A stretch of 62,089 bases of DNA, counting the filler, from Dugesia japonica (Eukaryota), in the NCBI GenBank assembly GCA_001938525.1. It is 6 parts of 6 records of this genome, joined end to end, with 100 filler letters (N's around TTAATTAATTAA, not from the genome) between each part and the next. Parts side by side here need not be neighbours in the genome. Positions count along the whole stretch, not along the records: positions 25,129 to 33,277 come from MQRL01182111.1; 5 more parts are not named here. The stretch is one strand, 5' to 3'. A model generated the notes under the pieces. It did not search any database. It was not told the origin of the DNA and was given only the letters and a program-made list of their open reading frames with translations. Below, piece after piece: positions 6,201 to 60,081 of the stretch; the stretch's first letter is position 1, and the number at the start of each line of letters is the position of its first letter. The position numbers and the translations under genes were made by a program.

Positions 6201-9200
6201 GTCCATTACAAGTGTGAGAATCCTACAATATGAATGCCACTCACATGACATTCTAATATTACTCAAGGAAAAGGAATACGTGAAAATAATTGATTCTAAT
6301 ACTAAGAAGCTTCATAACCGACTAATCCATTCATATAATTACTTAGTAAAAATTGGATTCATTTGTTAATATTATCGGGGAGAATATCTAAACATACAGA
6401 ATAGACGTTACCAACATCTCTTGACATACACAACTCTCACTATCACCAAGTCTTACCATAGACAATACTCGATATCATTAAGTCTTAACATACACAATAC
6501 TCGCTATCATCATTTATCTATTGATTATTTAATTATGGGTTTAATCTGTCCATCGCTTATTCAATATAGTGAACTATATTATTCACACTGAATATATATA
6601 TATACATTTTTAAACTAAAAACCTGAATAAACTGATTAATTGTTTACCTTAATATAGTAAAATCTATTAAAAATAAATTTCTAATGTGTTTAATAATCAA
6701 TTAATCATCTACTTGGAACATAAATNTATTCAATAATTAAACTANTATCCAATTAAACCTATCATTAGNCTTTAAAATCTATTAATTTTTTAACTTAAAT
6801 ATATTTTTTAAATTAATTAGTTAAATCTTCAAAGAAATTTTACCCAAAGTAAAATTCTAATTAAATCAATAACTATTTGATTAACTAATTTGATTCATTG
6901 AATTTAATTTTAAAATTATTCTTATTTATTGTAATATCCTAATTGAAAATAAAAANNNNNNNNNNNNNNNNNNNNNNNNNNNNNNNNNNNNNNNNNNNNN
7001 NNNNNATTGAATTTAATTTTAAAATTATTCTTATTTATTGTAATATCCTAATTGAAAATAAAAAATTGTAAAGGTTTTTTCATCTTTTTAATTGTAAATG
7101 CTTAAAAATTTTGAAAAAGTCTAAATTGGCTGTATTTTACACTTATAATTAATGTTTTAGATATTTTTTCTCATAATTATTTGCAAATTATTTATTCAAT
7201 CAATTATTTTAGTCACTTTCAATAAATATTAATATTATTTCAAATTATCTAATGCCTAATAAAAATTTCAATTATTATAATTAAAGTTTGAAACTAACTA
7301 TTTTCATTAAGGTTAAAGATTGGCTATTTTTAACCATGTTATTCTTACTTAGCATTAAATTCTCTATCTAATAGTTACTTTGATGTTTAAATTTGATTTA
7401 AGTTTTTATTTTTATTAATTCTCGACTCTAATTTAAAAAAGCATAATCTTAACTATTTATTTGAAAGATTATTATAAAATTGAAGTGTTTTCACATAAAT
7501 TCAAGTTGTATATACTTTTACTGATAATTATTTGAAAATTATTAAATACATCTTACTTAATCTATTTTATCAATTATATGAGTTATTTCTAATAATTGTT
7601 TAGAAATTATTTCAATGAATCAATCAAACTTTAATAAAATAATAATAAAAACTTTCTATTATAAATTTAAGATTAATTACAAAATACATGCGAAATCTAA
7701 TTTGATTTAAAAATATTTAAAAATTTCATCAATAATTAATAAACATTTTCTATTATAATTTTAATTTAACCGTTAAAAAGTTTAAATTTAATCATAAAAA
7801 TATATACATGAAATCTAATTTATTTTCAAAACACGATTAAACATAGTTTTAATCAAATTACACATTGAAAAAAATGAATTGTTATCCAATATCAATAAAT
7901 AAAACCATAATTTTGATCAAAGCTTTTATATTAAATGAAAAATTGAGGTACTTTTGATATTTTCGAAAATGTTACCAAAATCCGGNAAGATGGCTGTACA
8001 TATTCGTTGGGAAGCATTTTTCCCGAGACAATATTTTAACTTTATACAATCAATTTTTTCTCCTGAGTAAAATAATATCAAATTTGAAACTATGGGAGTT
8101 ATATTACACAGAGAAAATTGAGTACAAAAATTCAAAATTTGAGATTTTTTCACAACAAAACCCCATTTATTTCATCGAGTATTAACTTTGGCGATTTTGG
8201 ATTAACATATTTGGAATCAATTGTCTCTATTGAATAGACACTTTCTTAACCTATTTGAGAAGGAAAAATCTATCGAAAAATTTTTATTTGTGAAAAATGA
8301 TCGCCGTAAAATTCTTAGCAGTTATGTATAAAAATCTTTGAAATATGATATATAGAATATATTTTTTTCAAAACTTTAGACTGTTGGCACAGATTCCCAT
8401 AAAAATTTCATTTAAAAAATTTTAAATTTTCATATTATTTAAACAACATGAACGGTTTGCCCGGATTCTTATAAAAAATTCCCACAAAAATTTTTAAAAA
8501 ACTTGAAAATTAAAACAAAATTGACTTTTCACATAAATTTTCTTTAAATTCAACCCAAACTAAACATCCGAGTAAAGTATCACTCCAATTCACCTTAAAC
8601 TGACCCTTGTGAGTAAATAATTGACTAAGTTTGTCCATACCAACTAAATAATTGACCAACATTACCAAACCGAGTAAATAATTCACCAAATTGTTCAAAT
8701 CTGACCCAAACTAACCCTTCCTTAGGAAATATTTGAACAAATTACCTAAAACCGANNNNNNNNNNNNNNNNNNNNNNNNNNNNNNNNNNNNNNNNNNNNN
8801 NNNNNNNTGAACCAACCAAAAATCGACCTTATTCGATCTTACCGAGGAAATTTCGGACAAAAACCACCTAAATCCAATAAAAAATTGACCTCATTTGACT
8901 AATAATTGTTGTCAGCATTTCCTGGAATTTGTCTGTAAAAATATTTAAAATTTTTGTCAGATAATGGGTTAATTGGAAACAATTTACCATAAAAAGTGAA
9001 AATGAAAATTAAAATAGCTTTAAATGAAATAGTTTTTAAATATGGTTGTAAATATTCGTATTTCAGTCGATTGATTTAATTTTTAAAATAGAATTTGTTT
9101 AATAACTAATCCAGTATATTTTAGCTAAAACGGTATGGGTATCCTTTGACTTATAAGTTAAAGTTATCTGGAGAAAGCAAGGCCTATATTCCTAATCCAA

Positions 9201-11934: not shown

Positions 11935-12034
11935 NNNNNNNNNNNNNNNNNNNNNNNNNNNNNNNNNNNNNNNNNNNNTTAATTAATTAANNNNNNNNNN
12001 NNNNNNNNNNNNNNNNNNNNNNNNNNNNNNNNNN
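11935..12034. other. Artificial contig-joining spacer (44N-TTAATTAATTAA-44N)
   Basis: Identical 100-bp structure occurs five times; the 12-mer has stops in all six frames. Confidence 0.95.
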
Positions 12035-13726: not shown

Positions 13727-15041
13727 TTATAAAACCGTTTTCTGAAGTTCATTATCATAAAATCTACCTAGAATTTTTTCATTCTCCAAATCAGTAATTC
13801 CATAAGTTATTGGTTTTGTTTTATAAACTTNGGTTACAACAAATATTTCATTTGTTCACTAAGCTGTAAAACCTTTTTCAAATTTATATTTATATTTAAA
13901 GATTTTAACTCGATCTCCATTTTAAAATTTTGGTTTAAAACTAAAGTTATCATTTTCATGGTTGTGATTTTCGATTATTTCTTTTATTTTATCTGGATTT
14001 TCATTAGCTTCTTTTGGAGTTGTTTTTATGGAACTATGAATTGTATTATTATAATTATTTAAAATTTTTTGTAATAAATTATTATTCCATTTCTGATTTC
14101 CTGTTAATGTAAAGTATTTCCAGATTTTGTTTTTAGAGTTCTAATAAATCTTTCAGCAAAAACTGATTTACATTTTCAGTATGATACAAATTAATTTCAT
14201 TTTCTTTAAGAAATTTACCACAGTACTTTCATCTAATAGCTGATTCTTTGTCAAACCAGATATAATCAGGAATTTGATTATTTTCTTCAAATATATTTTC
14301 ATAAACATCTTTTACTGATTCTTGGTTTTTATTTTTCATTTGTATACAAAAACCATATCTAGAATATAAATCAATACAAACTAAAATATATCTATAACCA
14401 TCAGTTGATTTTTTAACCATATCTATAATTTCACAACCCCAAGTATTATCTTTTTCTTTTATTATTACTTTTAGAAAATGTTTTGGTTTTCTATAATTTT
14501 TGTGAAGTTCATTTGCTAATGTCTCTATATTTTTAAAATTATTTACTTTATTAGTGGGGATGTAACTCACTTTATTCGTTCCAGCTCCTAAAATAATTTT
14601 ACCTTTCATTGCTAATTTTACTAAACCCTTTTGTATCTTTTCTGAAATACTAGGATTAGGAATATTTTTTAAATCATGAATTAAATTTACATCAGCTAAA
14701 TGTCTATCTCTTAAACCTTCTGACTTGTAAGATAAATCATGTTTAAAAGCTGATTCATCTACTCCATTAATTGGTTCTTCTCCAGGTTTCGGATTATTAT
14801 TTTCATCTAATCTTAAATCCAATCTTGTTCCGGGACCAGTATAGTTATGTTTAAACAAATGTATTTCTTCAGAATATTTTTCCCAAGTAAATGGTTTTAA
14901 AATTGTAGAAGTTAATTTAGAAGATTGAAGATCACCACCACTATTAGTTTGAATATTCTTTAAACAAATTCGCAAATGTCTAGCTTTATTTTTTCTGAGT
15001 AATATTTTCTTACAATTTTCACAAATACATTTATTATCCAT
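13727..15041 (-). pseudogene. C2H2 zinc finger - parvovirus-type phospholipase A2 - rve integrase fusion (open 15041-14229, frameshifted afterwards)
   Basis: CENCKK...ARHLRIC; NYTGPGT Ca-loop, DESAFKHDLSY and RHLAD; LANELHK, YILVCIDLYSRY, IWFDKES, FAERFIRTL, PKFKNGDRVKI, GRFYDNELQK*. Confidence 0.9.
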
Positions 15042-15092
15042 TTTATATATTTTTAACTTGAAATATTAAAGTGGCTCCCGTGGAAGCCAACT

Positions 15093-15920
15093 TTAAACAT
15101 AACTTTCTCCTCGCTTACTTTCAATCATTACAATTTTACTATTTGATCATTTCATTTTAATATATTTTTCTTCTAAAATACACCAACATAAAGACCCTTT
15201 AAAATCAGATACTTTAGTTATATGTAAAGTTATATATACGGTATTTATATTTAATTTATCATCTTGGAAACTAACATCAAAACAAAAGATAGGGTACAAA
15301 TCCCCAAATTCTTGAAGAAATAATTGTGGTTCTGTTAAAAAGTTTTACAACAATTTACATAATTTAAATATGGAAAAATCATTTCATTATTTTTAATATT
15401 AAATTTACATTCATTTATATGTATTTTTTATTTGTACTTGAATACTTTTAAGATAATGTTTTGTTGTAACTTTTTTTTCTTTTCATTTTCAACAGTTTTA
15501 CTAATTTGTTGAATAAATAAATTATTATTCTTTTGATATGAAATTTCTGAATCTTTTATTTCAATAAATATATATCTTGTTTTATAAGTTAAATTACTCA
15601 GTTTAACTGAATAATAATTTCCAGAATCTAAAGTCGTTTTAGAGGTAACTCTATTTAAAAATGAAACTTCAATAGGTTTATTTGTGTTAATTCTTTCCAA
15701 CAGATTTACTTCCATTTTTGGAACTAATCTACATTCTTGGATGTGTAGTTTTAAAGTCATTAATTTTAAAGTAGCAGTTGTACTTGCGTCCCCATAAAAT
15801 ATTAAATTATCATTCATTTATCTATTACAAGTAAATTCAATCATTGTATTATACAACAATCTCTTGTAACATTGTAAAAAACCAAATAAATTTTTTTAAA
15901 GGAAAATAACCTTCAAATGT
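15093..15920 (-). pseudogene. Major capsid protein (double jelly-roll, hexon-like), C-terminal half
   Basis: Aligns by eye with 39150-40080 (FEGYFPLK, TNKPIEVSFLNR, YIFI, FGDLYPIFCFDVS); YP.F.FD.S is a typical Polinton capsid tail motif. Confidence 0.8.
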
Positions 15921-22145: not shown

Positions 22146-23843
22146 TAAAATTATAATCACATTTAGAGTCTAAATTTACACATTTTTTGGAGTTAAAAAT
22201 TGGAACATAACATTATTGTGTTTAATATTATTCTTACGTGTAAAAATAGATAATATAATAGATAATAATATAAAAATATGATAATAACGTATATTGTAAA
22301 AAATATATAGGTTGAGATAGGTACCATAAACACAATGCAAACGCATATAAAACATGCAAATACACATAACATATTAGTCAATTCTGAGTATTCAATAATA
22401 ATCAATCAATCAACATTCAATAATAAATCATGAAGCAACATTCGATAATAAATCAAAGGCAATCAACATTCGATAATTGAGTGCAAAACTTATCTATTAA
22501 AACTATATTTATAAAAGACTTCATTATGTGAATTCATTATGTTAATTTTAATTTTATTGATTGAACAAATGTGATTAATGTAAATAATAATTTTGTGATT
22601 ATTTTATTTTATGAAGAACTTAATGCAATTTATGTTTATTTTAATGAAATTTTATTTAATGTTATAAATATTTATTATATGTGAACGGAATAATGTCTGT
22701 TCACCCTGACTTTTTAAAAAGTCAAAATATCGAATTGTTATCCGATATCAATATAAAAAACTAAAAAAACTTTGATCAAAGCTTTTATATTATATTATTA
22801 TTTATTACATTATTTATACATTTCATTTAACGATATATATATTGTATAATATTTGTACTAACATACGAAAGAAAAGTCAACACCCATAAATCGATAAACA
22901 TATTTCTTATCCAATAGCTTTAAATTAACGAATCATAAAAGAACTTGTTGAATAGACATATAACACTAAAAATGAAATATAAAAAATATATAAATATAAA
23001 TGAAATTAAAAAAAGTCAAATCATTAAAAAATATTTATTCTACAAGTGTATTATTTGTTTCATCACTTTTCACTTTGTTTTTGTAAATTTTTTTNNNNNN
23101 NNNNNNNNNNNNNNNNNNNNNNNNNNNNNNNNNNNNNNNNNNNNNNNNNNNNNNNNNNNNNNNNNNNNNNNNNNNNNNNNNNNNNNNNNNNNNNNNNNNN
23201 NNNNNNNNNNNNNNNNNNNNNNNNNNNNNNNNNNAATTTTTAATGTAAAGATGAAATAATTTAAGGAGAATTTGTTTAATAAAATCATTTGAAATCTATA
23301 AAAAATCAAAAAAGTCAAATGTAACTCCAAAAATAAATAGTGGTGAAATATCACAGGCTTTTTAAATTTAAAAAATTAAATTTAAAACACCTATATACAT
23401 GCTATGATGACAAATTTCATATAGTGGTAATTGTAATTAGAATGCGGACGGAATTTCAATCTGACGTATTGGCGAGGAGTTATTAAATATTTTAAATTTA
23501 AATGCAGTACATGTATAATGACAGAAATTTAATTATAATAAATAACATTTGTTTCTTACATAAAATAATTTATTAAATTGGAATGAAAATTATTTATGCC
23601 AAAAAAAATATTACAATTTCAACAATTATTTAAATTACAGACAACAAAAAATGAAAATAAAAGTTATCAAAATAAAATAAAATCCAAATTTTAAAAATTA
23701 TTTTATTTCCATTTTCTATAAATAATAAATCAATACTGTTACAAAACTTATAAACGAAATATGACAGATTTAATTAAAATAAATTAATAAAAAAATAATT
23801 TACATAAACAAATTAATAAGGAAAATTATCGATAAAACATATT

Positions 23844-25028: not shown

Positions 25029-25128
25029 NNNNNNNNNNNNNNNNNNNNNNNNNNNNNNNNNNNNNNNNNNNNTTAATTAATTAANNNNNNNNNNNNNNNN
25101 NNNNNNNNNNNNNNNNNNNNNNNNNNNN
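25029..25128. other. Artificial contig-joining spacer
   Basis: 44N-TTAATTAATTAA-44N. Confidence 0.95.
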
Positions 25129-26670
25129 GGATAAATTTTAAGGTAAAAAATTTTATTTTGTGTTAAGTTACGCTAAAGTCAGGGGTTCATTTATAGGGTT
25201 CTCCTTACACCCCAACTTTTCTCCGATTTGTGGTTTATTTTTAGATTGATGATTTCTGATTTTTTATTGGCGTTGGTGCAATTTTTCTGGAATTTTGTGG
25301 ATTTCTCTGTGATTCTGTTGGTGGTTATTTTTGTATTATCATGTGAGTTTTTATTCTTTGTTATATGTTTATTTCTAGCTCTCTTATTGGCCGGATCTTG
25401 GAAACCCTGTTGAGTAGTATATTTTTCTTTACAGGTTATTTTCCGTTACAAACTTCCCAAATACAATTGCTTCCTTCTTTGAATTTCATTATACGTGAGT
25501 TTATGGGTTTTACTGTTTCTTTTTGTGGATTTCGGATTTTTTGGTCATATTATTTGTCTTCGTGGGTGTTTCACCCCAACATTTATAAAAGGACAGTTAC
25601 ACAATATTACTATTGATAGGTAGTTTTTAAAAGCAGATTTAATTTTTTGTATTAAAGATATCCATAAAATGGCAGAAAATAATTTACCATTTAGAAATAT
25701 ACCAATTAATGATCAAATAGGCGGTGGATTAGGATACCGCGGTATATTGAATATATTACAATTTTATGCAGGAAAACCTAGAAAAGTTGAAGAATATTTT
25801 GAGCACATGCACGTTTGTGCCACAGCTTGTGGATGAACAGAAGTAGAATTAATAAAACTATTACCACTTTTCTTAAAGGAATATGCATTAAAGTGTTATA
25901 AGAACATGAATAGTAAACCTGGAAAATGGTAAAAAAAAATTGAGGAAAAAGATAATAGTCCCAAGCGAGCTAGAAAGAATTTGCATACAAAAATTCCGGG
26001 GTCNAAACACAATCATCAAAGAAAACTGTGGATGAATACATGTATGAATTAACGAAATTGGCAGAACAAGCTTTTGGTAATAGTGATAACATCAGTCACT
26101 TAATAGAATATCAATTCTTAAATGGAACACATAATTACATTTGAGAAGCGTTAATTGCAGCAGAATATAAAGATTTAGAAGAAGTAACAACAAAAGCAAG
26201 GAAAATTGAAGCAAATAACAAACATAAAGAGAAAACCAGGCAAATATATGCAACTGAACCAAGTAATGAGGACTCATCATGGAAAGCATTTCAAAATCGT
26301 CAAGATAGTAGAAAGGATCTAGATCTAAAATTTAGGTTAAATTTCTACCTAACAAGTTATAATAGAAATGCGAGTCCATCAAGGAATTATAACCATTATA
26401 ACAGAAACCTGAGCCCTGGGAGAAATTTCAATAATTATAAAAGAAATAAAAGAGAATATTATCCTAGAAGATATAATCAATATTTCAGCCCTGAAAGAGA
26501 TTACAGCTACAAAAGGAGCCCAGATAGAAATTATAATAATATAGAATACAGGGAAGGAGAAACAAAATCATTTTTTCTAAAAGAAATATGGAATAAATAA
26601 ATTTCCGCAATGAAGTCTGAATTGCATTCTAATAACAACGAAAAGGTTTCTTTGCTTAATAGTGCATGAA
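25129..26670 (+). mobile_element. LTR retrotransposon remnant: LTR-like segment ending ...CCCCAACA (25581) plus degenerate gag from 25669
   Basis: VEEYFEHM..CATACG*TE...LPLFLKEYALKCY and Q...TVDEYMYELTKLAEQAF fit a retrotransposon gag capsid; the 18-bp terminus is shared in reverse with 60222-60239. Confidence 0.65.
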
Positions 26671-26689
26671 ACTAAATTACCAACTATAA

Positions 26690-27633
26690 AGTTTAAAGAT
26701 TCTTATCAATTTATAAACTCATCACTTGATTCAGCGATAAAATCCTTATAAGAGACACCTTTGACGTTAAAAGAGTTTAAAGATAAAAAAATTACATCGT
26801 CAAAGCGGATATTTCCATATAAGTAAGAACGTTTTGGTTAAAACTACTTAAATGCTGGTGAGATGAGATGAAATTAATGAGTAAAATTATGAAAAAAGAA
26901 TTAGAAATTTGGAGAATAACGGATTGCAAAATCCTTTTGGACTATATGATGGTTTATTAGAAGTTACACTTGTATTTATTGGCTGATTTCTTCCAATATT
27001 TCAGATTGAAGTTGTTATCGCAGAACGAATTGGAGCCATTGAATTTCTTTAGCATACCTGGTATGAGTTGGTCATCTGCCTTGATGTCATTGAATGAACC
27101 GATGAAACTGTATATGTACAACGATATGTCCACCTTTTTGAAGGTGGAATAAAGGTTGGATTGACATGTCATCACGCCATCACTAATGAAAACACAGATT
27201 TGTTATATATCGATATCAAGAATCTGTATAGATAAGCTCTTTGTCAAAAACTACCATTTAAAGACTTTGAGAAAGTACATACTGGTTTAGAATTAGTATT
27301 AGAAGAAATCAAGTCAACAGATCTTGATGTATTGTTCTACGGATATACTATGTAAGTAGACATGATAATCCCATTAGAAATACATGATTATCTTTATGAT
27401 TTACCTGTAGCAGCAGAACACTGCACTAGGTAGCAAAGTAAAAAACTAATGTTAACGCATTACGCAAAAACTAATTATGTAGTGCACTGGAAGCTGCTAA
27501 AAATATCTTTAAAGTTAGGAGTGAAGGTCCATAGAGCAGTAAGGTTTATTCAAGTTCGTAATTTTGCAAATTACATTGATACAAACACTGCATTAAGAGT
27601 AGAATGTAATACAGAACTTAAGAAAAACTATTA
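26690..27633 (+). pseudogene. Polinton protein-primed DNA polymerase B fragment
   Basis: KDSYQFINSSLD, IFPY, YLLADFFQYFR, EPLNFFSIPGMSWSSAL, YIDIKNLY, NYVVHWKLLK, YIDTNTALR. Confidence 0.88.
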
Positions 27634-28179
27634 TGTATCATCTAGAGTACATCGACCTCGAGAAGTATAGCACACTTCGGAAAAATTTGTTTTGTGTACC
27701 TATACTACTTACAAACCAAAACTCTTTATTCAACTAAAACTAAATCAAAAATTTACCAAAGCATCTTGAGACCTATATTATAACATGTGTCAACACCCTT
27801 TCTTTCCATCAACATTAAATTCACTCAAATCGGACAATTAACCACAACACCAGAACGATTTGAAGTCGAGTGTGAGATAACTCATTGCACTTCAGTCATA
27901 CATTCTATACTTTCTATACATTCTATACATCTACACTTTTCACACATAAACATACACCATACCACTTCACATCAATAGCATAATCCCAAAAAGAAATGTT
28001 TAAAAAATAAAAAAATAAAAAAATTTTTAAAAAATTCAAAACAAAATCTACTCACGATGTTTATTTATTCTACTCTTGATAACCTCCCGTTTGCAATGAA
28101 TGTGTCTAAGATCTGAAGTGCTGTTGGATATTGGTAGTTTTGATTCGTATGTGAGCTGGTTTCTTTCTATTTTAGGAAA

Positions 28180-28680
28180 TTTCACTCGATATGTCCATTC
28201 GATTTAAAATTTAAACATTTCTTTAACGCCGAGCAATTATTTTCGCCATGTTCAATTCTGAAACAATATTTGCAGTAATAGCTCTTTCTATTCATTGGAT
28301 CTCTTCCTCGGATTCTCTGAGTAACTCTACTCTTGTACTATTTCTTCGGTGCTTTGCATGATCGACTGTAACTTTGGTTTTATGTTTCTATCGAACTCTT
28401 CAATGATGTTGTTAATTTCTTTCTCAGTGTTAGTTTTTTGTCTTAACATACAAGAGTCATAATACTGCTTGTTATTGGCCTTCTTTTTATCAAATACATA
28501 TAAATTCTGCTAGGATTCTTCCAGAGTCCATACGTAACAACTGGTTGTAGATAGTCCGATTCTATTTTTTTGTGTCCAAAATATATTGGTCCTACTTCAT
28601 AATTCTCTATTTTCTTAATTTTTTCGATAATCTCACACCATAGATCTTCTTCATGAATTAGTAAGTGACTCTTTATAAAA
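28180..28680 (-). mobile_element. Gag-like remnant with CCHC zinc knuckles
   Basis: YCKYCFRIEHGENNC followed by a degenerate second knuckle, CLNFKSNGHIE. Confidence 0.5.
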
Positions 28681-28962
28681 TTAGATCAATGCCAATAATT
28701 TCAAATGCAATAATTTCAATGCAATAATTTCAAATAAATTATCGGACTCTACTGACCGACTGCTCTGTTTCTATAAATTTTATCTTATTTCATTAAACTG
28801 TCGTACCACATTTCTCTTTGCGTGCCTCGCGCTGAAATTTCACAGTTTGTACCATGCAAATCTGTATATCTCTATGACTTTCCTTTTTTCCATGAGTTCT
28901 CCTTCGTCTAATGTGATTATTATATAAGCTATCTAATGTTATATGTTGATATTTAAATAGAA

Positions 28963-29258
28963 ATGAATTTACAACGAAGTCTTCCGTTTTTGACACCATT
29001 GATAAAATCTCCAACTTAGATGAGAATGACAATGTTACAGATGATTTATTCGAGATTATTGTAAATAATGTTTATGGTAATGTCAGTGTGAGTAAAAATA
29101 GAAAATAAGCATTAAAAAACAAAAAGCCATTATTATCACTTGTAAATATCAAGAATAAAAAACTAATGAAAAATATTTTGTATAACCATGATTGTGGCTT
29201 TATAGCAGCATTACTATCAACAGCATTAGCTGTATTAAGTCCAGCAAATCTTTCATAA
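28963..29258 (+). pseudogene. Small basic Polinton core-type protein
   Basis: LPFLTPL...EIIVNNVYGNVSVS..RK..LK...DCGFIAALLSTALAVL resembles the E...N.L.GN.P....K..L...GGFL..LL family of Polinton ORFs. Confidence 0.55.
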
Positions 29259-31291
29259 ATGTGTAAAAGTAAGAAGAATACTTTGATAAAAAATAAACAA
29301 AAGAACAATATGTAATTGAAAGGTTTGATTCAATTAATCAATCAAATTCAAGAAGATTTTTGATTGGATGTTATTAAATTAAATTAGTATTAATTCATAA
29401 AATGAAGAATGATTAAAAAAAGACGAATATAATACGGAATATGAATATGTGACTGAAAAAAATTATGAAACAAGAATATATGGAAACTGAATAAGTTGTG
29501 GCTCTGAAGACAAATCAAATAAAAAAGTGGAAAAAGAAATATGGTCAAATAATACTAAAGAAACAGAAAAAGAAAAAAAGTGGAGCAAGCATGTTTTGAT
29601 GATGGATATGAAGAAAATACAGATGCAGAAAGGAATAATCGTTAGAAGTTCAAAACGAGATAAAAGAGTAATATTTTATGAATTTATATTTACAAACTAA
29701 TTATTGTTTCGAACATCATTGTAGAAATTTTGGAAGAAAAATTCAAAAACTTTCCAAATGATTCGGCATACTGAGCTCCATAAATATATGGGAATCGCAT
29801 CAAACTTTTCACAGATATTGGCCTTAATGATGACATACGCAAATATAATATAATATCATGAAATCACACAAGTATAGAGAATTTTCAATAAAACATAAAA
29901 AAAGTTTGTTGAGAACTATACAAAGTTCATGCAAACATCTATATATATATATATTAATACGCTTGCTAAAGCATAGTAATTTTGTACAACATAAGTTTTA
30001 TTCTCATAAGTATGCATTGATCCTATCAAAAACAAGAAATTTATACTCAATTAATTCATAGGAATCGACATAAAATTAGTCATTCAAACCGATTTAATAA
30101 ATTCAGTAATATATACAAAAGAAATGTAAATCAACGTACAAAAAAGTAACATTTATCATACAAACTTTTAAGTTAACATAAAAATAAATACTCAACATAT
30201 AAAATATTAAATTAATGACTTGAAATTACAAACCATTTCACTAAAATTCTTAACCGATACAATAAATTTCTCAGCAGGCATATAAAAATATATCTCATCA
30301 TATGAAAGTTTTAACATATTGCATTAATACTGTAATACATATCACTAGGATTCATAACCAATACTCTAAAAATAAAATCCGTCACACTAAAATCTCAACT
30401 GTTACACAAAAACTGAAACATATAAATCTAAATTGAATCAATCTCAAGTAAACTGTAAACACTGAAAAGTAAAAGCAATAAATTTCACTGTAACCATTAA
30501 ACATTTGACACTTAAAGATATAACAAAACTAAATTTCTAACTCTTGAAATTAAAGATCTGCTCACTGAAACCAAAACTTTGACTAATACGAATATAAGTA
30601 ATCTATATAGATACTATTTAATGTTGAGACTATGTTTCAGATATTAATCATTCAGTTATGTACATTTTTGCAATGAAATAAGATTGTATAATAGAACTGT
30701 TTCATTTACATCAATGAGTGAGAAAATATTTGATTTGCCAAGATATGGTCCTTAGGTTTTCAAAGTTTATGGTCAAACATACTATCGAACATCCATCTTG
30801 CAGCCTCTTGAAAATCAGAAGCTTCAATTAGCGCAATTATATGTGATTGATAGTACTCAAACCATAGAAATAGATGCGTTACAGAGTATTCAAACATGTT
30901 AGTCACTCTGACTACACTAAAGTCTTAAACATTACATTATACTTTTTTTAAAAGAACATATCGTTAGGTGTGCGAAATGGATAACTTATTACGATTCTCT
31001 ATGAATCTGCTCTGAAAATATGAATAATATTTATTCATTAGTAAATTTTTTCATCCAACTTAAAACATACTTGAAATTTTTTTTATGGGGCTTCATAATA
31101 AAATAAAATTATTTACTTTAATCTGTTTAAAAGTAAAAGAATTCGATAATTTCTTAATAAATAATTTCTATTTTATTTTTTATTAATTAATTATAATGAT
31201 GTTCAGGTATTCATAATTTCAATTTTTAATTATTTTCATTTAAAATAAAAGCTTCGAGCAAAAGTTTTTTTTTATTGTTTTGTTGAGATTG

Positions 31292-31324
31292 ATTCGATAT
31301 TTCGACTTTGTCTTCGTCAGGAAC
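31292..31324 (-). ncRNA. Minimal type I hammerhead ribozyme (Penelope-like element type)
   Basis: Minus strand GUUC-CUGACGA-A-GAC AAA GUC-GAAA-UAUC-GAAU: intact core, 3-bp stem II, palindromic AUAU stem III, AUC site. Confidence 0.7.
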
Positions 31325-31329
31325 AGTCA

Positions 31330-31362
31330 ATTCCTGACGAAGACAGAGTCGAAATATCGAAT
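31330..31362 (+). ncRNA. Minimal type I hammerhead ribozyme (Penelope-like element type)
   Basis: AUUC-CUGACGA-A-GAC AGA GUC-GAAA-UAUC-GAAU: stem I AUUC/GAAU, palindromic stem III, AUC site. Confidence 0.72.
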
Positions 31363-31986
31363 CAATCTCAAAAAGACAATAGCGTTTATTTTAAATGAAT
31401 TCTAAAAAATTCTCGAAGAAATTGATCATTTCTTTTGTGTGCACCACAGATTTGCACAAAGTTATCAATTAATGAAAGATGTAGAAGTACAAGAATTTGC
31501 ACGCTCTGTTGAAGCCGGTGAGTTGATTCCGATTGTCAGTATTGCATTCAGACGCGAAAGTCATTCTGATCAACGCAGATACAATGCTTCTACTTCCAAA
31601 GAAGTATCAATGATTTTCGTCAATGAAGATGCCATTCGACATTCATCTGAGATCCAAGTAAACAATTTATAAGTTGAAAATAAATTTCTAATAAAACGTC
31701 ATTTTTATTATATTCTACTTCTAGAAATTCTTTTTCAGACACGGGGTCTAAATCATTTGCAATTAGAATAAATGCATTATAAACAAAAAATTATTTTTTA
31801 ATTATCTAGTATTTTAACTGTTATATTCTGTATTAATCAAAAAAAAAATTTTGAAATTTTTTGAGTTGATTTAAAAAATTAAAAATCATTAAAATTAAAA
31901 GTTAAAAAAAATAAACCAAAAAAATTTCGATAAAATTTAAAGAATTTAGTAACAAAGATCTATTGTATTGAATATCTCAAGAAGCC

Positions 31987-32030
31987 AACATGTTCCTGAA
32001 GAAGACTATTGTCGAAAATTTGAACTTGTT
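31987..32030 (+). ncRNA. Minimal type I hammerhead ribozyme variant
   Basis: AACAUGUUC-CUGAAGA-A-GAC UAUU GUC-GAAA-AUUU-GAACUUGUU: 9-bp stem I with one mismatch, palindromic AAUU stem III. Confidence 0.72.
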
Positions 32031-32553
32031 TATAAATAAATTTTATTTTGATCGAAGCTTATTCTTATTTTAATGAAATCTCAAATGCGATCAATGGTTA
32101 AGTCCAACAATTATTCTCACAATAATTGTAATTATATATTCAGTTAATTCAACTTTGACATTTCAAAACAGTTTAATATAGTAGATTGTGTAAATATTTC
32201 CCAAAATAATTTGGTTTATAATAAAGGGTCCTTAACAGTTAATTGTGAGTATGCATAAAATACACTTTTACCAGATTCAACTTGCTCGATGATTTTACAC
32301 AAAGAAAGTTTTTAAACAAATCGATTTTTTATTTCTCTTGGAAAACTTTTGCAAATTATGTATAAAATTACGTAAAACATTGAGTTTTGATTTGAATTAT
32401 GTTAATTTATGTGCCATAAAAAATTAGAAAACTATTACAACAAATAAAATAAAAATAAGTTCATGTTTATAAAAATAAATAATTCTTATTGTTAATCATT
32501 TTAAATAAATCACAAAAGATACATGTAAACGTTTGAAAGCTGTATGAACATTG

Positions 32554-33252
32554 TTAAAATAACAATGATTTAATATCTTCTGAATAAAAATCGTTTTCTG
32601 GACCATCTTCAATATCGAATCCTAATTTATTATTGACCAATTGTATCTTGATGTCCTTGTATTCAGCAATATTTTTGAATCTCCATTTTTTGACTAATTC
32701 ATAAAGGTTTTCTGAATAATTTGGCATTTTATAAGTCATAACGCTTTTTGCAACATTTGTACACCACCTAAAATATGGCCATTCTTTACTATTAAAATAA
32801 TGTCTATGTCTCATTTCAATATTATTATTTATAAAATCTTCTTCGTCTTTATCAATACTTTTCATTAAATTATCAAATGATAAATCCAAATCATTAAAAC
32901 AATTTTGAACTATTGACCGGGCCACTTTAGATTGCATATAACTATGATTAAAAGGAGTGATTTCATAACCTAGTCCAATCATAAAAAAACTATTGGGAAA
33001 ATAGGGATTAATTAAATGTTTATAAAGAGGTCGAACATAAGTATTGTCATATTTTAATCCAATTTTATCACTAAGAAAACTGAGATCGATTTCATAACCG
33101 GTACAAAATATTATCACATCAACATCATATTTGGATCCATCTGTTAAACAAATTGAACCTTGAAGATCTATATGTGATATTCTGACAGTTTCAATGAAAT
33201 TATTTTTTTCAGTTTTCCACATTAGTTTTGGTCCACTATGTGATAAATACAC
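32554..33252 (-). CDS. Flavin-containing monooxygenase (FMO-like), terminal exon
   Basis: VYLSH...DGSKYDVDVIIFCTGYEIDLSFL...PLYKHLI (FATGY-type motif); tttAG acceptor at 33254-33253; upstream exons are cut by the contig end. Confidence 0.88.
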   Translation of the reverse strand: MYLSHSGPKLMWKTEKNNFIETVRISHIDLQGSICLTDGSKYDVDVIIFCTGYEIDLSFLSDKIGLKYDNTYVRPLYKHLINPYFPNSFFMIGLGYEITPFNHSYMQSKVARSIVQNCFNDLDLSFDNLMKSIDKDEEDFINNNIEMRHRHYFNSKEWPYFRWCTNVAKSVMTYKMPNYSENLYELVKKWRFKNIAEYKDIKIQLVNNKLGFDIEDGPENDFYSEDIKSLLF

Positions 33253-33277
33253 CTAAAATTATTATCAATTATAAATT

Positions 33278-33377
33278 NNNNNNNNNNNNNNNNNNNNNNN
33301 NNNNNNNNNNNNNNNNNNNNNTTAATTAATTAANNNNNNNNNNNNNNNNNNNNNNNNNNNNNNNNNNNNNNNNNNNN
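33278..33377. other. Artificial contig-joining spacer
   Basis: 44N-TTAATTAATTAA-44N. Confidence 0.95.
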
Positions 33378-35974
33378 AAAGAAATTTTGATCGAAGCTTT
33401 TAATTTAATGAAATATGAAATACGATCAATGATTAAGTTCAACAAATTATTCTCGCAATAATTGTAATTGTAAAATTATTTTGTTTCATAATTACTTATT
33501 GGTAAATAATTATTCTCACGAAACTTTCCCATAATTTGAAATAAATTATTTCTTTTAATTGTTTAAATTTCCTTTATGTTAATTACGTGATATTTTCATA
33601 ATTTAAAATCTTTTATAAATAAAAAAATATCTTTCAAAACTTATCTGTGTTTAATTACAAAGTAATAATGATGAATTATTTACAAAATCAAAATGAAAAC
33701 ATAACAATTACGTCTCCAAATAAAAAGTTGGAATTTTCAAATAATAATTACTTCACTTATTCAATTTCAAATTCAGCTTAAAATCATATTTGTCCAAGAG
33801 TAAAATTTTAAAAATTAATTACTAAACTTTGTTCTATATACAAAATGTTTTGCTAACGGGTAATTTGACTGACAATACTGATTAATTCAAAATTAATATT
33901 TCATAGACAAAATTGAAATTTTCTGAATTCAAATGAATTTAATTTTATTTGTAAATGATTCATATATATTTCAAAAAATTTCATTACCTTATTAAAGAGT
34001 AGTTTTTTTTCCGAAAATATAAGCAATTTAATTAAATGATACTGGTTTACTTCAAGTTAAAATTATTTTTGAATTAATTGCGAATAGTTGTTCATTAATT
34101 AATTTTTCGTTATTCATTAAATTAATTAAGTTTTATATTTATTGCAAAATCTGAAATATAGTTTGAAAATCGCACTTAGTTTATAATGAAACTATTATTT
34201 CAAAATAAAGTTGAATAGTTGTATAAAAAAGGTTTTCTGGTTTCTATTTAAAACTCTCATTATTTTAAAATATTTTTGAAATTTTTAGTAATAAAGAAAA
34301 AAAAATTAAAAATCAATATTTTCATCAAAATGGGATTTAAGAACCAACGACAATAATAAAACTAGAATGTGGATGAATTAAACTTTTAATTAACAACAAT
34401 TTTTACAAAAAATGCATAATTTTAATTTTTTATGTTTATTTTGCATAAGATTATAATAAAAACAATCACTAAATTGAAAAGGAAAAAATAAAATAAATTC
34501 TTTTAATTATTTCATTATTTGTTTTCACTTTGAAATAATACTTAAATAAATAAAGCAATAAAATAATAGAAATTCCATTTTTAAAAAAAATTTAATTATA
34601 TTTAAGATTATAATGTTTAAAGCATGAAAACAAAACACTTATTTTAATTAAGTAGTTAAGTTTCCGAAAAAAAAAATAAAAGTGATAAAAGTGATATAAC
34701 TGATGATTATAAAAGTGATGTAAGTAGTATAAATTTTCGTTCCAAGAAATTAAAAGATTTGCATTAGAAAAAATTAAAAAATATTTTTGTAATGTACAAC
34801 TCAATATGCCAGCAATCCTTTAATGTTAGTAAATAAGTATTCATTATGATTGTACAATTTATTCTGAGATTCATAAGTAAATTTAGTTATAAGAGTTTGA
34901 AATGATTTACACCATTTTCAAAATTTTCTGAAAATGAAATAAATGACTNNNNNNNNNNNNNNNNNNNNNNNNNNNNNNNNNNNNNNNNNNNNNNNNNNNN
35001 NNNNNNNNNNNNNNNNNNNNNTAAGAACGTAATTTATTTTTGAATATTTGAGATTTCTGGTAGTTCTTTGAAAATATCATTTTGATTTTTTAATGAAATA
35101 AAATGTCAGTAAAAAATTGGTGGGATGTAGAGTGGCAAATCCAATATATCTTTAAGTGTTTCTTTTATTATTAGTCGTGTATAATGAAATTAAGCTAATA
35201 TTTTTTATATATTTTTTGGCATTCCATTTAGGTGAAAGATCAAAAGACCTGAAAATTAGAATTATCATTCAAAGAAATTTTATAGAACATCTTGTATAGA
35301 GAATTGCTCATAACATTATATTTAAATCTGGACCTAAATATTTAAAAACTAGAGATTGATGAGCTTGGTATAGTGGTTCTCATATTCTGGAAAACTCACA
35401 TTGTGTTTTCTTCCAACTTTTAATTTATCTTCATCTGTTTTTCGAGATGGCCTGGGTATTTTCCAACGACAATCTGCTAGAGGTATTTTAGCATTAAGAG
35501 CATGAGTCAAACATCCATGTAATACTTTAAAAGTATTTAAATATAATTTCGTACAAATGGAAGCTTTTCAGTTTAGCTTCGATAGAAAACATTTATAGCT
35601 ACATTTTCTTTTCGATTTAGTTTTTGTTTAGTTTATTGTCCATGAACTAATCCAGATAGAAACAAATTATTTTTTTCAAAGTTTTTCAAATTTTAAAAAG
35701 ATTTAAATTTAGAATTTCTGTCTTCAAATCCGAAGAAATTTGAACTTTAATTAGAGCAAAAGCAATCCTTATTTTCATAAACTTTACCTTTTATGTGAAT
35801 ACCTAGCAATCTGAGTACTAAAAGTCAGGTTATCCGACCCAATTCTCAAAGCATTGCACGTAACTCTACTGTTCAAAACTTTGAACTTGCCGATGCTTAT
35901 TTTAACTGTTACATTTATGTAGAGACAGGCATGATCTAAAACCAAACTTTGTTACGCAGTTTCATATGCTTATT

Positions 35975-38640: not shown

Positions 38641-40082
38641 ATGAACACAGTAATAGACTTAGATAATAATATGGAATTTACTCATACAGCAATAAAAAAT
38701 GATACACTTGTAATTTTCACCATCATCAGGAACAACAAATAAATTAAATGCAAGTGGTGACATTGTATTTCAATCTCTCTAATCTACAAATCCACTTGAT
38801 CCACCTGTAATTCACCTGTAAAAATCCACCTGTAATTCACTTTTATATTTTATAATTGATATAAAATTTTCAGATAAAGATAAAATAACATTAGAAAATA
38901 ACTGGTTTCCAAGTTTATTTAATTCAATAAGATTATTTATAGGTTCATCAGAAGTTGAATCGATAAATGATCCAGGTGTAATATCTACAAAGTTAAATTT
39001 TATAATTACAACTGAAACATGTAAAAAAGAATATGGTCAATTGTCAGGATGGATGCCAGATATAAATAAAGGAGATATTGCAATAAAAGAATGGGATACT
39101 AATATTGGTTATTTTACTAGAAAAGCGGTTTATAACTCAATTAAAGTTGGAGATAATTATAAATTTGAAGGATTCTTTCAATTAAAAAATCTATTTGGTT
39201 TTATGCAAAATTATAATCGACTTTTTTATAACACATCAATAGAACTTAGATGTAACAGACAAATTGAAGATACATTATTATTTTAGGGAGATGCCACAGC
39301 ACAGAACAATTAAATTTATCAACACTTGAATTACATATTCCAGAATATAGATTATTACCAAAAGCAGAATTATTTATGTTAGAAAGTATATCTACAAATA
39401 AACCAATAGACATTTCTTATTTAAATAGAATATGTGGTAAAACAAATTTAGAAGTAGGAACATTTTATTCAATAAAAATTGGAAGCTTAGCATATCAATC
39501 TAGATATATTTTTATTTGTTTTAAAGAAATAGGAAAAAAATTCGGGAATAATAATAATTTATTTATACAAAAAACTACAAAAATTGAAAAACGTGGTGCG
39601 CCACCAGTTGATACACCAAGGTTTACAATTACAATTAAACAATTGTAACTATCCAGCTAATGAATTAAAATTTGATATGTCAGAAAATAGAATGGTACAT
39701 CCTTATTTAAATTATGTAAAATGTTGTCGTGATTTTTTTAATGAACCACAATTATCACTTTTAGATTTTGGAAATCTTTATCCGATGTTTTGTTTTGATA
39801 TAACTGCACATGATGATAAAATGAATATTAATAATGTTGATGTTACACTAAAAATAACAAAGGATAATAATTNNNNNNNNNNNNNNNNNNNNNNNNNNNN
39901 NNNNNNNNNNNNNNNNNNNNNNTATTAATAATGTTGATGTTACACTAAAAATAACAAAGGATAATAATTTTAAAGCAATTATTCATTGGTGTATACCTGA
40001 AGAAAAACATGTTGAGATGAAATTAGCTAATAGTAAAATTGTTATGGTTGAAAATGTTAGAGGTATAGATATGAAATGTTAA
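38641..40082 (+). pseudogene. Major capsid protein, near full length, frameshifted
   Basis: SGDIVFQS, ITLENNWFPSLFNSIRL, LKNLFGF, LHIPEY, YLNYVK, YPMFCFDIT; homologous to the copies at 15093-15920 and 59335-60081. Confidence 0.82.
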
Positions 40083-40178
40083 ATGTTAAATAATCGACTC
40101 ATGCATTAGCCAATATTAAATGTTAAATAAATGTGAAGATTGTGGAAAAATAATTCGATGATATTAAATGTTAAATAA

Positions 40179-41479
40179 ATGTCTAAAAACTTTATATGTG
40201 AAGATTGTGGTAAAATAATTTTAAAGAAAAATAAGTCAAGACATTTAGATTTGTGTATAAACAAATTCAAAGGAGGTGACTTACAAGATTCAAAAGTAAT
40301 ATCAACATTATTAAAACCAATTACTACAGAAAAATATCCAGGTGAAAGACATTTGTTTAAACATAATTACAATGGACCTGGAACAAGATTAGATATTCGA
40401 TTAGATGAGAATTTATAACCAAAAGAAAATGAAGAACCAATTAATAAAGTGGATTGCCTCGCATTAAAACATAACATTGCTTACTCTGGCGCAACCACAG
40501 GACATAATTCAGAAAATATTAGAGATCGACATATTGCAGATGTAAATTTAATGCATGATTTGAATAATATTGAAAATCCTACATCAACAGAAAAATTTCA
40601 AAGAGCTCTTGTAAAATTAGCTATGAAAGGTAAAATCATGATTGATAAAAGTCTTTAAAAAATCAAAGTTACTACTGAAGAATCTGATGATGAGATAACT
40701 TACGGACAAATTTTAGCAGAAGAATTTCATAAAGAATATAGAAAGCTAAAACATTTATTAAGAGTAGAAGTTAGTGATAAAGATGATATTTGGTCTGCAG
40801 ATTTAATATTTCATCAGAAAAATGTAATATAAACAGTTATAGATCTTTATACGCGATATGCTTTTGTTGAACTTCAAAAAAATAAAACTGGACTAGAAAC
40901 AACAAAAGCATTTGAAAGAATTTTAGAAAAAAGTTTTAGAACTCCAAATAAATTATGGACTGATAATGGAATAGAATTTTACAATAAACATTTTAAATCT
41001 TTTGTGAAGAAAATAACATTAAATTATATTCAACTGAAAATCAAGGTAAAGCAGTTGTAATTGAAAGATTTAACAGAACATTTAAAAATAAGCTCTTTAA
41101 ACCTTTTACTGCCTTTGGGAATCAAGATATAAATATTAAGTTATTAGAGAAAATTGGAAATGAATACAATAACACAATACACTCAACAATTAATGTTACA
41201 CCTCAAAATGCTTCAATTAATCCTGAAAGTATTGAAATAGAAATTCCAAAGGATTTTACTGAGAAACTTAGATTTAAAATTGGTGATCGAGATCGAATCT
41301 TTAAAGTTAAAAAATTATTTGCTAAAGGTTATACTTTTAAATGGTCTAAAAGAATTTATATTATTACTAAAATACACAACACAAAACCTTATACTTTTGA
41401 AATCTCAAATCTTAACAGCAACAAAATATTGGGAAGATTTTATACAAATGAATTACAAAAGAGTCACGCTGTGGCCTAA
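40179..41479 (+). pseudogene. C2H2 zinc finger - PLA2 - rve integrase, second copy
   Basis: CEDCGK...SRHLDLC; NYNGPGT; DCLALKHNIAY; RHIAD; WSADL, LWTDNGIEFY, VIERFNRTFK, GRFYTNELQK. Confidence 0.9.
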
Positions 41480-41522
41480 AATATAAAAAACGTATGTTAT
41501 GACTAAAAATTAAACATTAAAA

Positions 41523-42300
41523 ATGCGTAGGGTCTTAAATCGTTTAGAATCTACTATTTCAGATTTGTTTAAAATTGGTGTTCCAAGAGATGAAACATTT
41601 TATATGGAAATTATAGCAAATTTAATGTTAGTTAAAATATTAAACCACGAAGAAAAAGAAGACCAAGAATAATTCCTAAGAAAGAAATTAAAACCACTTC
41701 GGTGGTCGATGGACAAACACAAACACAAATAATAATGATTTGTGAAAGTGAAAGTTCAGAATCTGAAAGTGAAAGTTCAGAATCTGAAAGTGAAAGTTCA
41801 GAATCTGAAATAATATATCCTAGAAATGAAAGTTCAGAATCTGAAAGTGAAAGTGAAACCGCTTCGCTGACCTACGGACAAACACAAATAATAATTCCCT
41901 TAAGTGAAAGTGAAAAATTTAAGCAAGAATTTTTCAAATCTTTCTTACCACTTCCATTTTCTTAAGCATTATTAAAACAAGATAAAATTCATGGAAAATT
42001 AGATAGAAAAGAAATACAGAAAAAATTCATTATTGGGATGATGTAATAATTAAAAGCAAACAAATTGGTTTAATTGGTTATTCTAATTTAGGAAAATTAT
42101 TATTAATACTAAAAACAAAATTTAGAAAAAGTGAAGAATTTAAAAATTATTTGGTTAAAAGAAAAATTTATTATTCAGTAAGACATATAAATAAATTAAT
42201 ACAATTTAGTAAGTTAGTAGATAAGTTTCCAAAAATATTAACTACTAAATTTTCATTTCGTAAGATCACATTAAACTTTAAAAAGATTGATGAAATTATT
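41523..42300 (+). pseudogene. Acidic repeat-containing ORF (21-nt GAAAGTGAAAGTTCAGAATCT tandem units encoding ESESSES)
   Basis: Tandem repeat at 41744-41860 inside a broken frame between the integrase and the ATPase. Confidence 0.5.
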
Positions 42301-42310
42301 GATAAAGAAA

Positions 42311-42618
42311 ATGGCAACTCCTTTTGTCTGGAATAATAATATTACAAATTTTAATAATAAAGTATTACCTAATAATTTTATACTTTTAATGATAGGTTCA
42401 TCAGGTTGTGGTAAAAATGTTTTATTAATGAAAATGTTATTAACTCCAGGATTTTTAGATTACAATGTTTTAATTATTTTTTCAACAACAATCACCCAAT
42501 TTGAAATTCAATTATTATATTTAGGATTTGAAAATGGATTATCCAAAGAAGAAATAATTTTAATGTTTGAAAAACAAAATATAGTACCAAATACTTATAA
42601 TACTCCACATCAAGTTGT
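42311..42618 (+). pseudogene. A32/FtsK-like DNA packaging ATPase, N-terminus
   Basis: LLMIGSSGCGKNVLLMKMLLTPGFLDY contains a Walker A (GKT changed to GKN) in Polinton context. Confidence 0.8.
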
Positions 42619-42718
42619 NNNNNNNNNNNNNNNNNNNNNNNNNNNNNNNNNNNNNNNNNNNNTTAATTAATTAANNNNNNNNNNNNNNNNNNNNNNNNNN
42701 NNNNNNNNNNNNNNNNNN
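42619..42718. other. Artificial contig-joining spacer
   Basis: 44N-TTAATTAATTAA-44N. Confidence 0.95.
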
Positions 42719-51671: not shown

Positions 51672-51771
51672 NNNNNNNNNNNNNNNNNNNNNNNNNNNNN
51701 NNNNNNNNNNNNNNNTTAATTAATTAANNNNNNNNNNNNNNNNNNNNNNNNNNNNNNNNNNNNNNNNNNNN
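51672..51771. other. Artificial contig-joining spacer
   Basis: 44N-TTAATTAATTAA-44N. Confidence 0.95.
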
Positions 51772-59130: not shown

Positions 59131-59334
59131 CTCCGCTGCACATTTCTAATTATAAAATAAAAACTAAAAGGTTTCGAATGTGAGGTTTTAAATAATTTTC
59201 ACAATCAATACAATTATTTTCTGAATTAAAAATATATATCTAGGTCTATAAGCCAAATTTACTAATTAAAAAGAATAGATTGATCCTTCACCCATATCAA
59301 TAACAGAACAAATTCCATTTAAATAATTTGCGTA

Positions 59335-60081
59335 AATTGATTTATTTGAATTTAGTCTTTCTAATAAGTTTACTTTAGATCTTGGATTTAGCGTTCACTC
59401 AGGTATATGTAATTCTATTGTTCTTAGCTTTAATGTAGCTGTTAATGCTGCTGCTCCAAAAAAGAGTAATTTATCTTCTACTTGTATAATGCATATTAAT
59501 TCGATAAATACATTATGTATAACACTATCATAATTCTGTAAAACGCTGAATAAATATTTTTAATCAAAATGTCCTTCAAATTTCATTGCGACATTATATA
59601 ATAATTTTCTTTTATAATAACCTTTATTCATATCTTTCCATGTAACGTCGTTAGTTTCTGTACTGTCATCAGGGATCCAACCAGTCATTTCTCTGTATTC
59701 TTTTTCATAATCAGAATCAGTTAAAATACAGTTTAACATAGATGAATAAACTACTGGATTTTAAATAGATTCTACTTCTGTTGAACCTCATTTCAATTTT
59801 ATGTTACCAAATAAATTAAGAAAGAAATTATTTTCTAAAGTTATATCATCATAAGATGTAGAAGGTTCTATTTTAATTTTATAATATAATCTAGCGTTAC
59901 AAATATCTAAAGGATTTGATGATTGTAAGGATTGAAAAACTATGTCACCTGATTTATTGAAATTAGAAATAGAACCGGATGTTAGAGAAATCTTTAATAN
60001 GTNATTTTTCTTAATCTCGTGTTTAAATTCTTTATTATAATTCAAGTTGAGTTTTGATTTTTGTTCGGAATTCATTGCCAT
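59335..60081 (-). pseudogene. Major capsid protein, N-terminal half (element C)
   Basis: NKSGDIVFQSLQSSNPLD, ITLENNFF, GSTEVESI, GWIPD, KFEGHF, TATLKLRTIELHIPE; homologous to 38641-39420. Confidence 0.82.

What the first reader, a model, noticed from the sequence alone, without database searches (positions are those of the whole stretch)
31232..31400. Palindrome carrying a hammerhead ribozyme on each strand
Seen: a 41-bp near-perfect inverted repeat (31283-31323 / 31331-31371, 7-nt loop), extending imperfectly to about 31232-31400. Each arm holds a complete minimal hammerhead (CUGACGA, GAC/GUC stem II, GAAA, loopless AUAU stem III, AUC site). The only difference between the arms lies in the stem II loop. 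Known: Penelope-like retroelements carry minimal hammerheads thought to act as dimers and often form inverted pseudo-LTRs. Inference: a transcript from either strand holds one ribozyme plus its own antisense, so it may switch between self-cleavage and a long dsRNA hairpin (possible small-RNA source). The unit sits inside a Helitron remnant.
Basis: partly seen in the sequence, partly recalled or inferred. Interest (0 to 1): 0.72.

Follow-up and report, generated by a model that had tools for sequence, protein, structure and literature searches.

The report
Mirror-image relic of ribozyme-bearing retroelement
This is a short end piece of a very common jumping gene, copied back-to-back in a flatworm genome, so its two self-cutting RNA motifs would zip into one hairpin and stay off; it is a known by-product of Penelope-type elements, not a switch.

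Summary
The palindrome and both minimal hammerhead motifs are real, and they interrupt a dead Helitron. The layout is head-to-head, so on either strand the antisense arm is made first; opening the core costs 45-47 kcal/mol. A switch is not supported. Both arms share a weakened stem I and a 3-bp stem II. Two RNA runs gave no reads on the unique flanks and no end pile-up. The same layout recurs in unrelated animal DNA: 8 of 47 motifs in one assembly sit in close head-to-head pairs, and one such pair is 220/221 identical to pseudo-LTRs downstream of GIY-YIG ORFs. Inverted junctions and opposite-strand hammerhead pairs are published for Penelope-like elements. Linkage to an RT in this genome could not be tested. 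Verdict: ordinary Penelope-type relic.

The parts
31232..31330 (-). Left arm: family fragment read on the minus strand, hammerhead then A-rich stretch and the family's AAGCTT...AAATGAA segment
31296..31320 (-). Minimal hammerhead core (CUGACGA, extra A, GAC-AAA-GUC, GAAA, AUAU, C17); predicted cut between 31296 and 31295; stem I GUUC/GAAU
   Evidence: cut site inferred from hammerhead numbering
31324..31330 (.). 7-nt spacer, the inversion junction; family contigs match the + strand from 31325, so the + arm probably carries the native 5' flank
   Evidence: 147 loose ends before 31325 in each DNA run; assignment is inference
31331..31405 (+). Right arm: same fragment on the plus strand, with a 20-nt deletion after 31380
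   Evidence: contig 31328-31516 in both DNA runs
31334..31358 (+). Minimal hammerhead core (loop II AGA); predicted cut after C31358; stem I AUUC/GAAU
30654..30872 (+). Helitron Rep N-terminal coding remnant, 5' piece (one in-frame stop)
   Evidence: tblastn 37-54% identity, E to 5e-20
30873..31231 (.). Rest of the interruption, low-copy AT-rich DNA of unknown origin
   Evidence: relatives have about 12 residues here; DNA depth 3-53
31406..31633 (+). Helitron Rep remnant, 3' piece, resuming at the end of the right arm
   Evidence: 57 relatives at E up to 0.001; 8 of 10 scanned carry Helitron_like_N
31880..32136 (+). Separate, longer copy of the family with 5' extension and a ~55-60-nt 3' extension
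   Evidence: depth profile and loose ends at 32133/32136
31996..32022 (+). Third hammerhead (CUGAAGA, GAC-UAUU-GUC, AAUU stem III, U17; stem I 8 of 9 pairs); its minimum-energy fold is the hammerhead shape
7859..7942 (+). Family fragment lacking the hammerhead core (another scaffold)
22697..22801 (+). Family copy with a broken core, longer stem II and the common TGTTATC segment (another scaffold)
33378..33471 (+). Family 3' part at the start of the next scaffold; not physically linked to the finding

Best explanation
A dead, non-coding insertion: two short 5'-truncated copies of a Penelope-type pseudo-LTR (the hammerhead-bearing end repeat) joined head to head. Shown: the anatomy, the family's abundance, the Helitron interruption, the recurrence of this layout in Penelope pseudo-LTRs elsewhere. 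Inferred: a Penelope RT copied an uncleaved RNA through the ribozyme core, stopped about 9 nt upstream of it, and the new strand folded back and copied itself, giving two arms that end at the same family position; later mutation added 4 substitutions and a 20-nt deletion. If read through, either strand forms one long hairpin as it is made and neither ribozyme folds, so the unit is catalytically silent and most likely without function.
For: Motif fits the published metazoan consensus. Summed contig depth 1-2e5 on the arms and up to 3.4e6 on the third copy against 3-53 in neighbouring bins, falling towards the 5' side (1.5e4 at 31878, 8.5e5 at 32028, 3.4e6 at 32101 in X1) with a sharp 3' end. 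Four of six window pieces stop ~55-60 nt before that end, like an optional tail. Both arms share a 7-nt deletion absent from two other window copies and from the common loose-end consensus, so one template gave both. Parallels: 2 of 15 pattern hits are long head-to-head hammerhead palindromes; in G002 8 of 47 motifs are in close head-to-head pairs; L064 is 220/221 identical to a pseudo-LTR 249-265 bp downstream of GIY-YIG ORFs, Pfam above cut-off in 3 of 3. PMC3846280 describes head-to-head palindromic junctions by self-priming; PMC4209133 notes opposite-strand pairs. Folding.
Against: No RT or GIY-YIG homology in the window and no genome to search, so Penelope linkage of this family is indirect. 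No target-site duplication of 6 bp or more. The extension is longer than the published 30-40-bp tail. Contig depth is not a copy number and also reflects how far the laid copy is from the family. The 360 bp left of the palindrome are unexplained. The left arm and junction were not bridged by a listed contig.
Confidence: 0.78

Rival explanations
1. Same relic, but the mirror copy arose later at the DNA level (replication template switch or fold-back repair of a solo copy), not during retrotransposition.
For: No TSD; shared deletions fit either route; the interruption holds 360 bp of other DNA.
Against: Both arms end at the same family position, and the same geometry recurs in five palindromes of other families, as published for Penelope insertions.
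Confidence: 0.12
2. The palindrome is a regulated RNA switch between self-cleavage and hairpin.
For: Both cores are intact and the one difference in 41 bp falls in loop II.
Against: Antisense arm comes first; core unpaired probability at most 0.0007; penalty 45-47 kcal/mol; even isolated arms prefer other folds (-8.3 and -5.6 against -1.8 and -1.9). Core is not significantly more conserved than the outer arm (1/41 vs 3/28, p 0.30). No reads on unique flanks.
Confidence: 0.03
3. The hairpin is transcribed in some tissue and feeds dsRNA into small-RNA silencing of the whole family (compatible with the best explanation as a side effect).
For: A ~50-bp nearly perfect RNA duplex; Penelope copies yield small RNAs in a rotifer (PMC3846280); family RNA is seen on both strands.
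Against: Zero RNA depth over 30500-31243 and 31430-31801 in both RNA runs; the neighbouring FMO transcript ends near 32546. Only about 6 and 25 in 100 of the runs were read, no small-RNA library was laid, and the animals may lack this allele.
Confidence: 0.08
4. The family is a stand-alone SINE or retrozyme-like unit and the palindrome is itself a mobile fold-back element.
For: Extreme abundance; one contig joins the 3' extension to the hammerhead start, a tandem (table 5c).
Against: Other window copies are single-armed; the apparent old mirror arm of the third copy is chance (779 of 1000 shuffles); 147 contigs leave the sequence at 31325 instead of crossing the junction; retrozymes carry canonical hammerheads in tandem arrays.
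Confidence: 0.07
5. Assembly or amplification artefact.
For: No listed contig spans the whole palindrome.
Against: Arms differ by 4 substitutions and a 20-nt deletion; the right arm with three spacer bases and the Helitron flank is in contigs of two runs from different studies.
Confidence: 0.02

Closest known systems
Minimal type I hammerheads of metazoan Penelope-like elements (PMC4209133)
   Same: CUGANGA plus one extra base, G10.1-C11.1, GAAA, palindromic 4-nt stem III without loop, short stem I; mostly dispersed truncated copies; opposite-strand pairs noted ~100-700 bp apart.
   Different: Here the two motifs are 14 nt apart (C3 to C3) and stem II is 3 bp with a 3-nt loop, at the low end of the published alignment; stems differ from the planarian example listed there.
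Inverted pseudo-LTR junctions of Adineta vaga Penelope elements (PMC3846280; layout also in PMC8557442)
   Same: Head-to-head 5'-truncated copy with a palindrome at the junction, optional 3' tail, TSD not always present, solo pLTRs without ORF.
   Different: No ORF between or beside the arms; arms only 75-100 bp; that paper's passages do not discuss ribozymes.
Anolis Poseidon PAc hammerhead (PMC11167929)
   Same: Copies include the uncleaved ribozyme and end roughly 100 nt downstream; no RNA-seq ends at the cut site.
   Different: Activity and RT start sites were measured there; neither is here.
Non-LTR retrozymes (PMC7229834; bioRxiv 10.64898/2026.07.22.740005)
   Same: Short non-coding hammerhead repeats, proposed to derive from Penelope pLTRs.
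   Different: Those are direct tandem arrays, described with canonical type I motifs; this is an inverted pair of minimal motifs.

Membership tests
Minimal hammerhead (PLE type) | Core CUGANGA, extra base, G-C closing stem II, GAAA, UH | tested here: met
   against consensus
Minimal hammerhead (PLE type) | Self-complementary stem III for dimer formation | tested here: met
   AUAU in both arms, AAUU in the third copy; 4 of 4 pairs as homodimer
Minimal hammerhead (PLE type) | Stem I of 2-6 bp | tested here: met
   4 bp in each arm; A-U / G-U / G-C variation at the fourth pair among the three copies
Minimal hammerhead (PLE type) | Stable stem II (usually 4-8 bp) | tested here: inconclusive
   3 bp plus 3-nt loop; 20 of 21 same-pattern motifs in 19 metagenome loci have 4 bp or more, some loci near-duplicates
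Minimal hammerhead (PLE type) | Self-cleavage as dimer | not testable with these tools
   needs assay; no end pile-up in two RNA runs is a weak test
Penelope-like element pLTR | Family adjoins an RT/GIY-YIG ORF in the same genome | not testable with these tools
   no genome held; none in window; met for a look-alike family in G002
Penelope-like element pLTR | Head-to-head inverted truncated copy with junction palindrome | tested here: met
Penelope-like element pLTR | 5' truncation with fixed 3' end and optional tail | tested here: inconclusive
   depth gradient and sharp end; 2 of 6 pieces carry a 55-60-nt extension
Penelope-like element pLTR | Target-site duplication (optional in this group) | tested here: not met
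   no direct repeat of 6 bp or more at either candidate left edge
Non-LTR retrozyme | Direct tandem array of hammerhead units | tested here: not met
   inverted pair here; one tandem-like contig elsewhere
MITE / DNA transposon | Terminal inverted repeats with uniform TSD, copies carrying both arms | tested here: not met
   no TSD; other copies single-armed
microRNA precursor | Rfam family match at gathering score | tested here: not met
   best 49.6 bits against 117
Helitron (host sequence) | Homology to Rep-helicase proteins on both sides | tested here: met

The most novel reading that the evidence does not exclude
Fold-back junctions placed just upstream of the hammerhead are a routine, self-limiting product of Penelope replication that turns the ribozyme region into hairpin dsRNA, and in this flatworm such loci supply small RNAs that silence one of the genome's most abundant repeats.
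Probability: 0.08. Interest if true: 0.55.

Novelty: new member of a known kind. Interest (0 to 1): 0.22.

Why it matters
As a locus it matters little. The useful by-products are a flatworm hammerhead repeat family of very high abundance that I did not find described, and a count suggesting head-to-head hammerhead pairs are common (8 of 47 motifs in one assembly). A genome-wide map of junction positions would test the self-priming model of Penelope replication. If the hairpins proved to be small-RNA sources, they would link that replication by-product to silencing.

Tried and rejected
Whole genome not held. Rfam: no hammerhead match, only sub-threshold hairpin models. Idea that the third copy is an older palindrome, making the family natively two-armed: rejected, 779 of 1000 shuffles scored as well and the 271-nt fold had z -0.34. 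Cis dimer with the third hammerhead: stem III 2 of 4 (one search had parsed that stem one base off). Selection on the core: p 0.30. TSD search empty. New family copies by nhmmer beyond the six training pieces: none better than the reversed-window control. Helitron piece: no Pfam hit, no word-index hit, no useful Atlas hit; found by full phmmer. Viral contigs: 0 and 3 loci, none palindromic; 13 of 15 genome-contig hits were not long palindromes. No RNA holder listed. The 1335-bp spaced repeat crosses a scaffold linker and is not a real spacing. Earlier findings by place and sequence: nothing. Literature search with hammerhead, head-to-head, retrotransposon, palindrome: 0 papers.

Full report
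Observation. The inverted repeat is at the stated place: 41-bp arms with one mismatch, 51 bp with three, a 7-nt spacer, and an outer 19-bp pair after a 20-nt deletion in the right arm. It is the only such repeat in the window and folds far better than shuffles. Each arm has CUGACGA, one extra A, a 3-bp stem II with a 3-nt loop, GAAA, self-complementary AUAU, C17 and a 4-bp stem I. This fits the consensus in PMC4209133 (main text parts 1-2 of 4 and supplement file 2 parts 1-2 of 3 read; file 1 could not be searched). Rfam gave no hammerhead match.

Setting. The window is a chain of scaffolds joined by N-padded linkers; the finding lies on 25129-33277. A USP14 gene on another scaffold groups with two parasitic flatworms in a quick tree of 27 rows, 26 picked from 120 listed hits (SH-aLRT 100, long branches). 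At about 25% GC a free-living planarian is my guess, not a result. The flanks are a Helitron Rep remnant: the 3' piece found 57 relatives, 8 of 10 scanned carry Helitron_like_N, and tblastn places pieces at 30654-30872 and 31406-31633 where relatives have about 12 residues between them. About 500 bp are therefore inserted, the palindrome being the last ~175; the other ~360 bp are low-copy and unexplained. No target-site duplication was found.

The family. Six related pieces lie in the window. Two DNA runs laid 29,072 and 28,515 contig records on 30500-33270, with summed depth 1-2e5 on the arms and above 1e6 on the third copy against 3-53 in neighbouring bins (the tool warns this is no copy number). 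Depth on the third copy rises from 1.5e4 at 31878 to 3.4e6 at 32101 and stops at 32133-32136, as expected of 5'-truncated retrocopies, though divergence of the laid copy also shapes it. Both arms, and two other pieces, stop 55-60 nt before that end. Both arms lack 7 nt (TGTTATC) that follow GAAT in two other window copies and in the loose-end consensus of 115 and 105 contigs; by base-pair reading this cuts the plus arm's stem I from 6 to 4 bp. One template thus gave both arms, and it was already weakened. The third copy folds into the hammerhead shape by itself and shows matching changes in stems I and III.

How it works. The arms are head to head, so on either strand the antisense arm is transcribed first. 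Folding of growing prefixes pairs the core as it appears; the core's unpaired probability is at most 0.0007; forcing it open costs 47.2 and 45.3 kcal/mol. Isolated arms also prefer other folds, by a nearest-neighbour model that ignores tertiary contacts. These motifs are thought to need a dimer (PMC4209133; review passages of PMC6765202; the 2017 dimer paper itself was not held), and the only same-strand neighbour pairs 2 of 4 in stem III. In two RNA runs (about 6 and 25 in 100 read) family reads lie on both strands, 2 of 179 and 80 of 2636 at 99% or more, with zero depth on the unique flanks and no pile-up of ends. That is a weak test: strain, library type and hairpin dropout all limit it. 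The single core difference falling in loop II is one event, and core against outer arm gives p 0.30.

Parallels. A pattern for close head-to-head hammerheads gave 15 loci in genome contigs, 2 of them long palindromes (L028, L029), and 3 viral loci, none palindromic; the pattern itself limited the spacing. Both lie in assemblies labelled bacterial that hold animal-like DNA. G002 has 74 matches to a Penelope-type thumb/endonuclease frame and 47 hammerhead motifs against 1 reversed control; 8 of 47 form four close minus-then-plus pairs. Arm identities are 114/115, 93/101, 116/133, 71/72, and 89/91 for L028, whose C3-to-C3 distance of 14 equals ours. L064's family, also GAC...GUC-GAAA-UAU, is 220/221 identical to a copy 260 bp downstream of a GIY-YIG ORF; three such ORFs pass the Pfam cut-off. 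So this layout is made from Penelope pseudo-LTRs in at least one genome. In 19 metagenome loci with our core pattern, two carry RT or endonuclease frames upstream, both below Pfam cut-offs.

Known work. PMC4209133 reports dual minimal hammerheads on opposite strands about 100-700 bp apart. PMC3846280 (passages) describes head-to-head inverted pLTRs with junction palindromes, reads them as self-priming, and notes solo pLTRs. PMC8557442 (passages) shows the inverted truncated copy and optional tail as general. PMC11167929 (passages and section 3 part 2) finds uncleaved RNA is the main template, the ribozyme protein-assisted, and no RNA-seq ends at the cut site. Retrozyme papers (PMC7229834 passages; bioRxiv 10.64898/2026.07.22.740005 parts 1-2 of 5, its supplements not seen) concern direct tandem arrays. 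Searches showed no paper on this family or on such tight pairs; the library lacks most subscription journals and repeat databases were not searchable.

Verdict. Real, correctly described, and best read as a silent Penelope-type inversion relic (0.78). Works like: an inverted pLTR junction. Membership: hammerhead motif met on sequence, activity untested; Penelope origin likely but indirect, since no genome was held. The switch reading is unlikely (0.03). Interest 0.22.

Noticed in passing
window 11935-12034, 25029-25128, 33278-33377, 42619-42718, 51672-51771: Five linkers of 44 N, a 12-nt all-frame stop word and 44 N: the window is concatenated scaffolds, so distances across them are meaningless.
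   Followed up: yes
window 31880-32136: Better-preserved family copy with an intact third hammerhead; the best candidate for an activity test.
   Followed up: partly
window 32122-32157: 100-135 RNA reads in both RNA runs share the same foreign flanks here: one expressed transcript elsewhere carries the family's 3' end.
   Followed up: no
window 30873-31231: About 360 bp of low-copy DNA inside the Helitron break, origin unknown; may be captured flank or a separate insertion.
   Followed up: partly
window 32554-33252 (-): FMO-like last exon, transcribed from the minus strand; RNA and DNA runs show other haplotypes several percent apart.
   Followed up: partly
window 13866-15918, 38822-42670, 59230-59889: Decayed copies about 63-66% alike with PLA2-like plus integrase domain and a weak A32-type ATPase hit; Polinton-like by recall.
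   Followed up: no
window 48424-49941 (+): USP14-like gene in one 505-codon frame, used for lineage placement.
   Followed up: yes
G002 and G001 (L029, L028): Assemblies titled 'MAG: bacterium' hold animal-like DNA with microsatellites, Penelope-type ORFs and hammerheads; likely mislabelled eukaryotic bins.
   Followed up: partly
G002:C653 and G002:C448: Tandem units about 3.5-3.8 kb apart whose GIY-YIG-like frame holds in-frame TGA codons in each copy; could be recoded.
   Followed up: no
L008:522-748 and L009: Tail-to-tail pair of two different hammerhead families meeting at a TA repeat, one downstream of an RT frame.
   Followed up: partly
window 147-706, 9915-10265: Exons resembling LDL-receptor, Ig and laminin repeats (perlecan-like by recall).
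   Followed up: no
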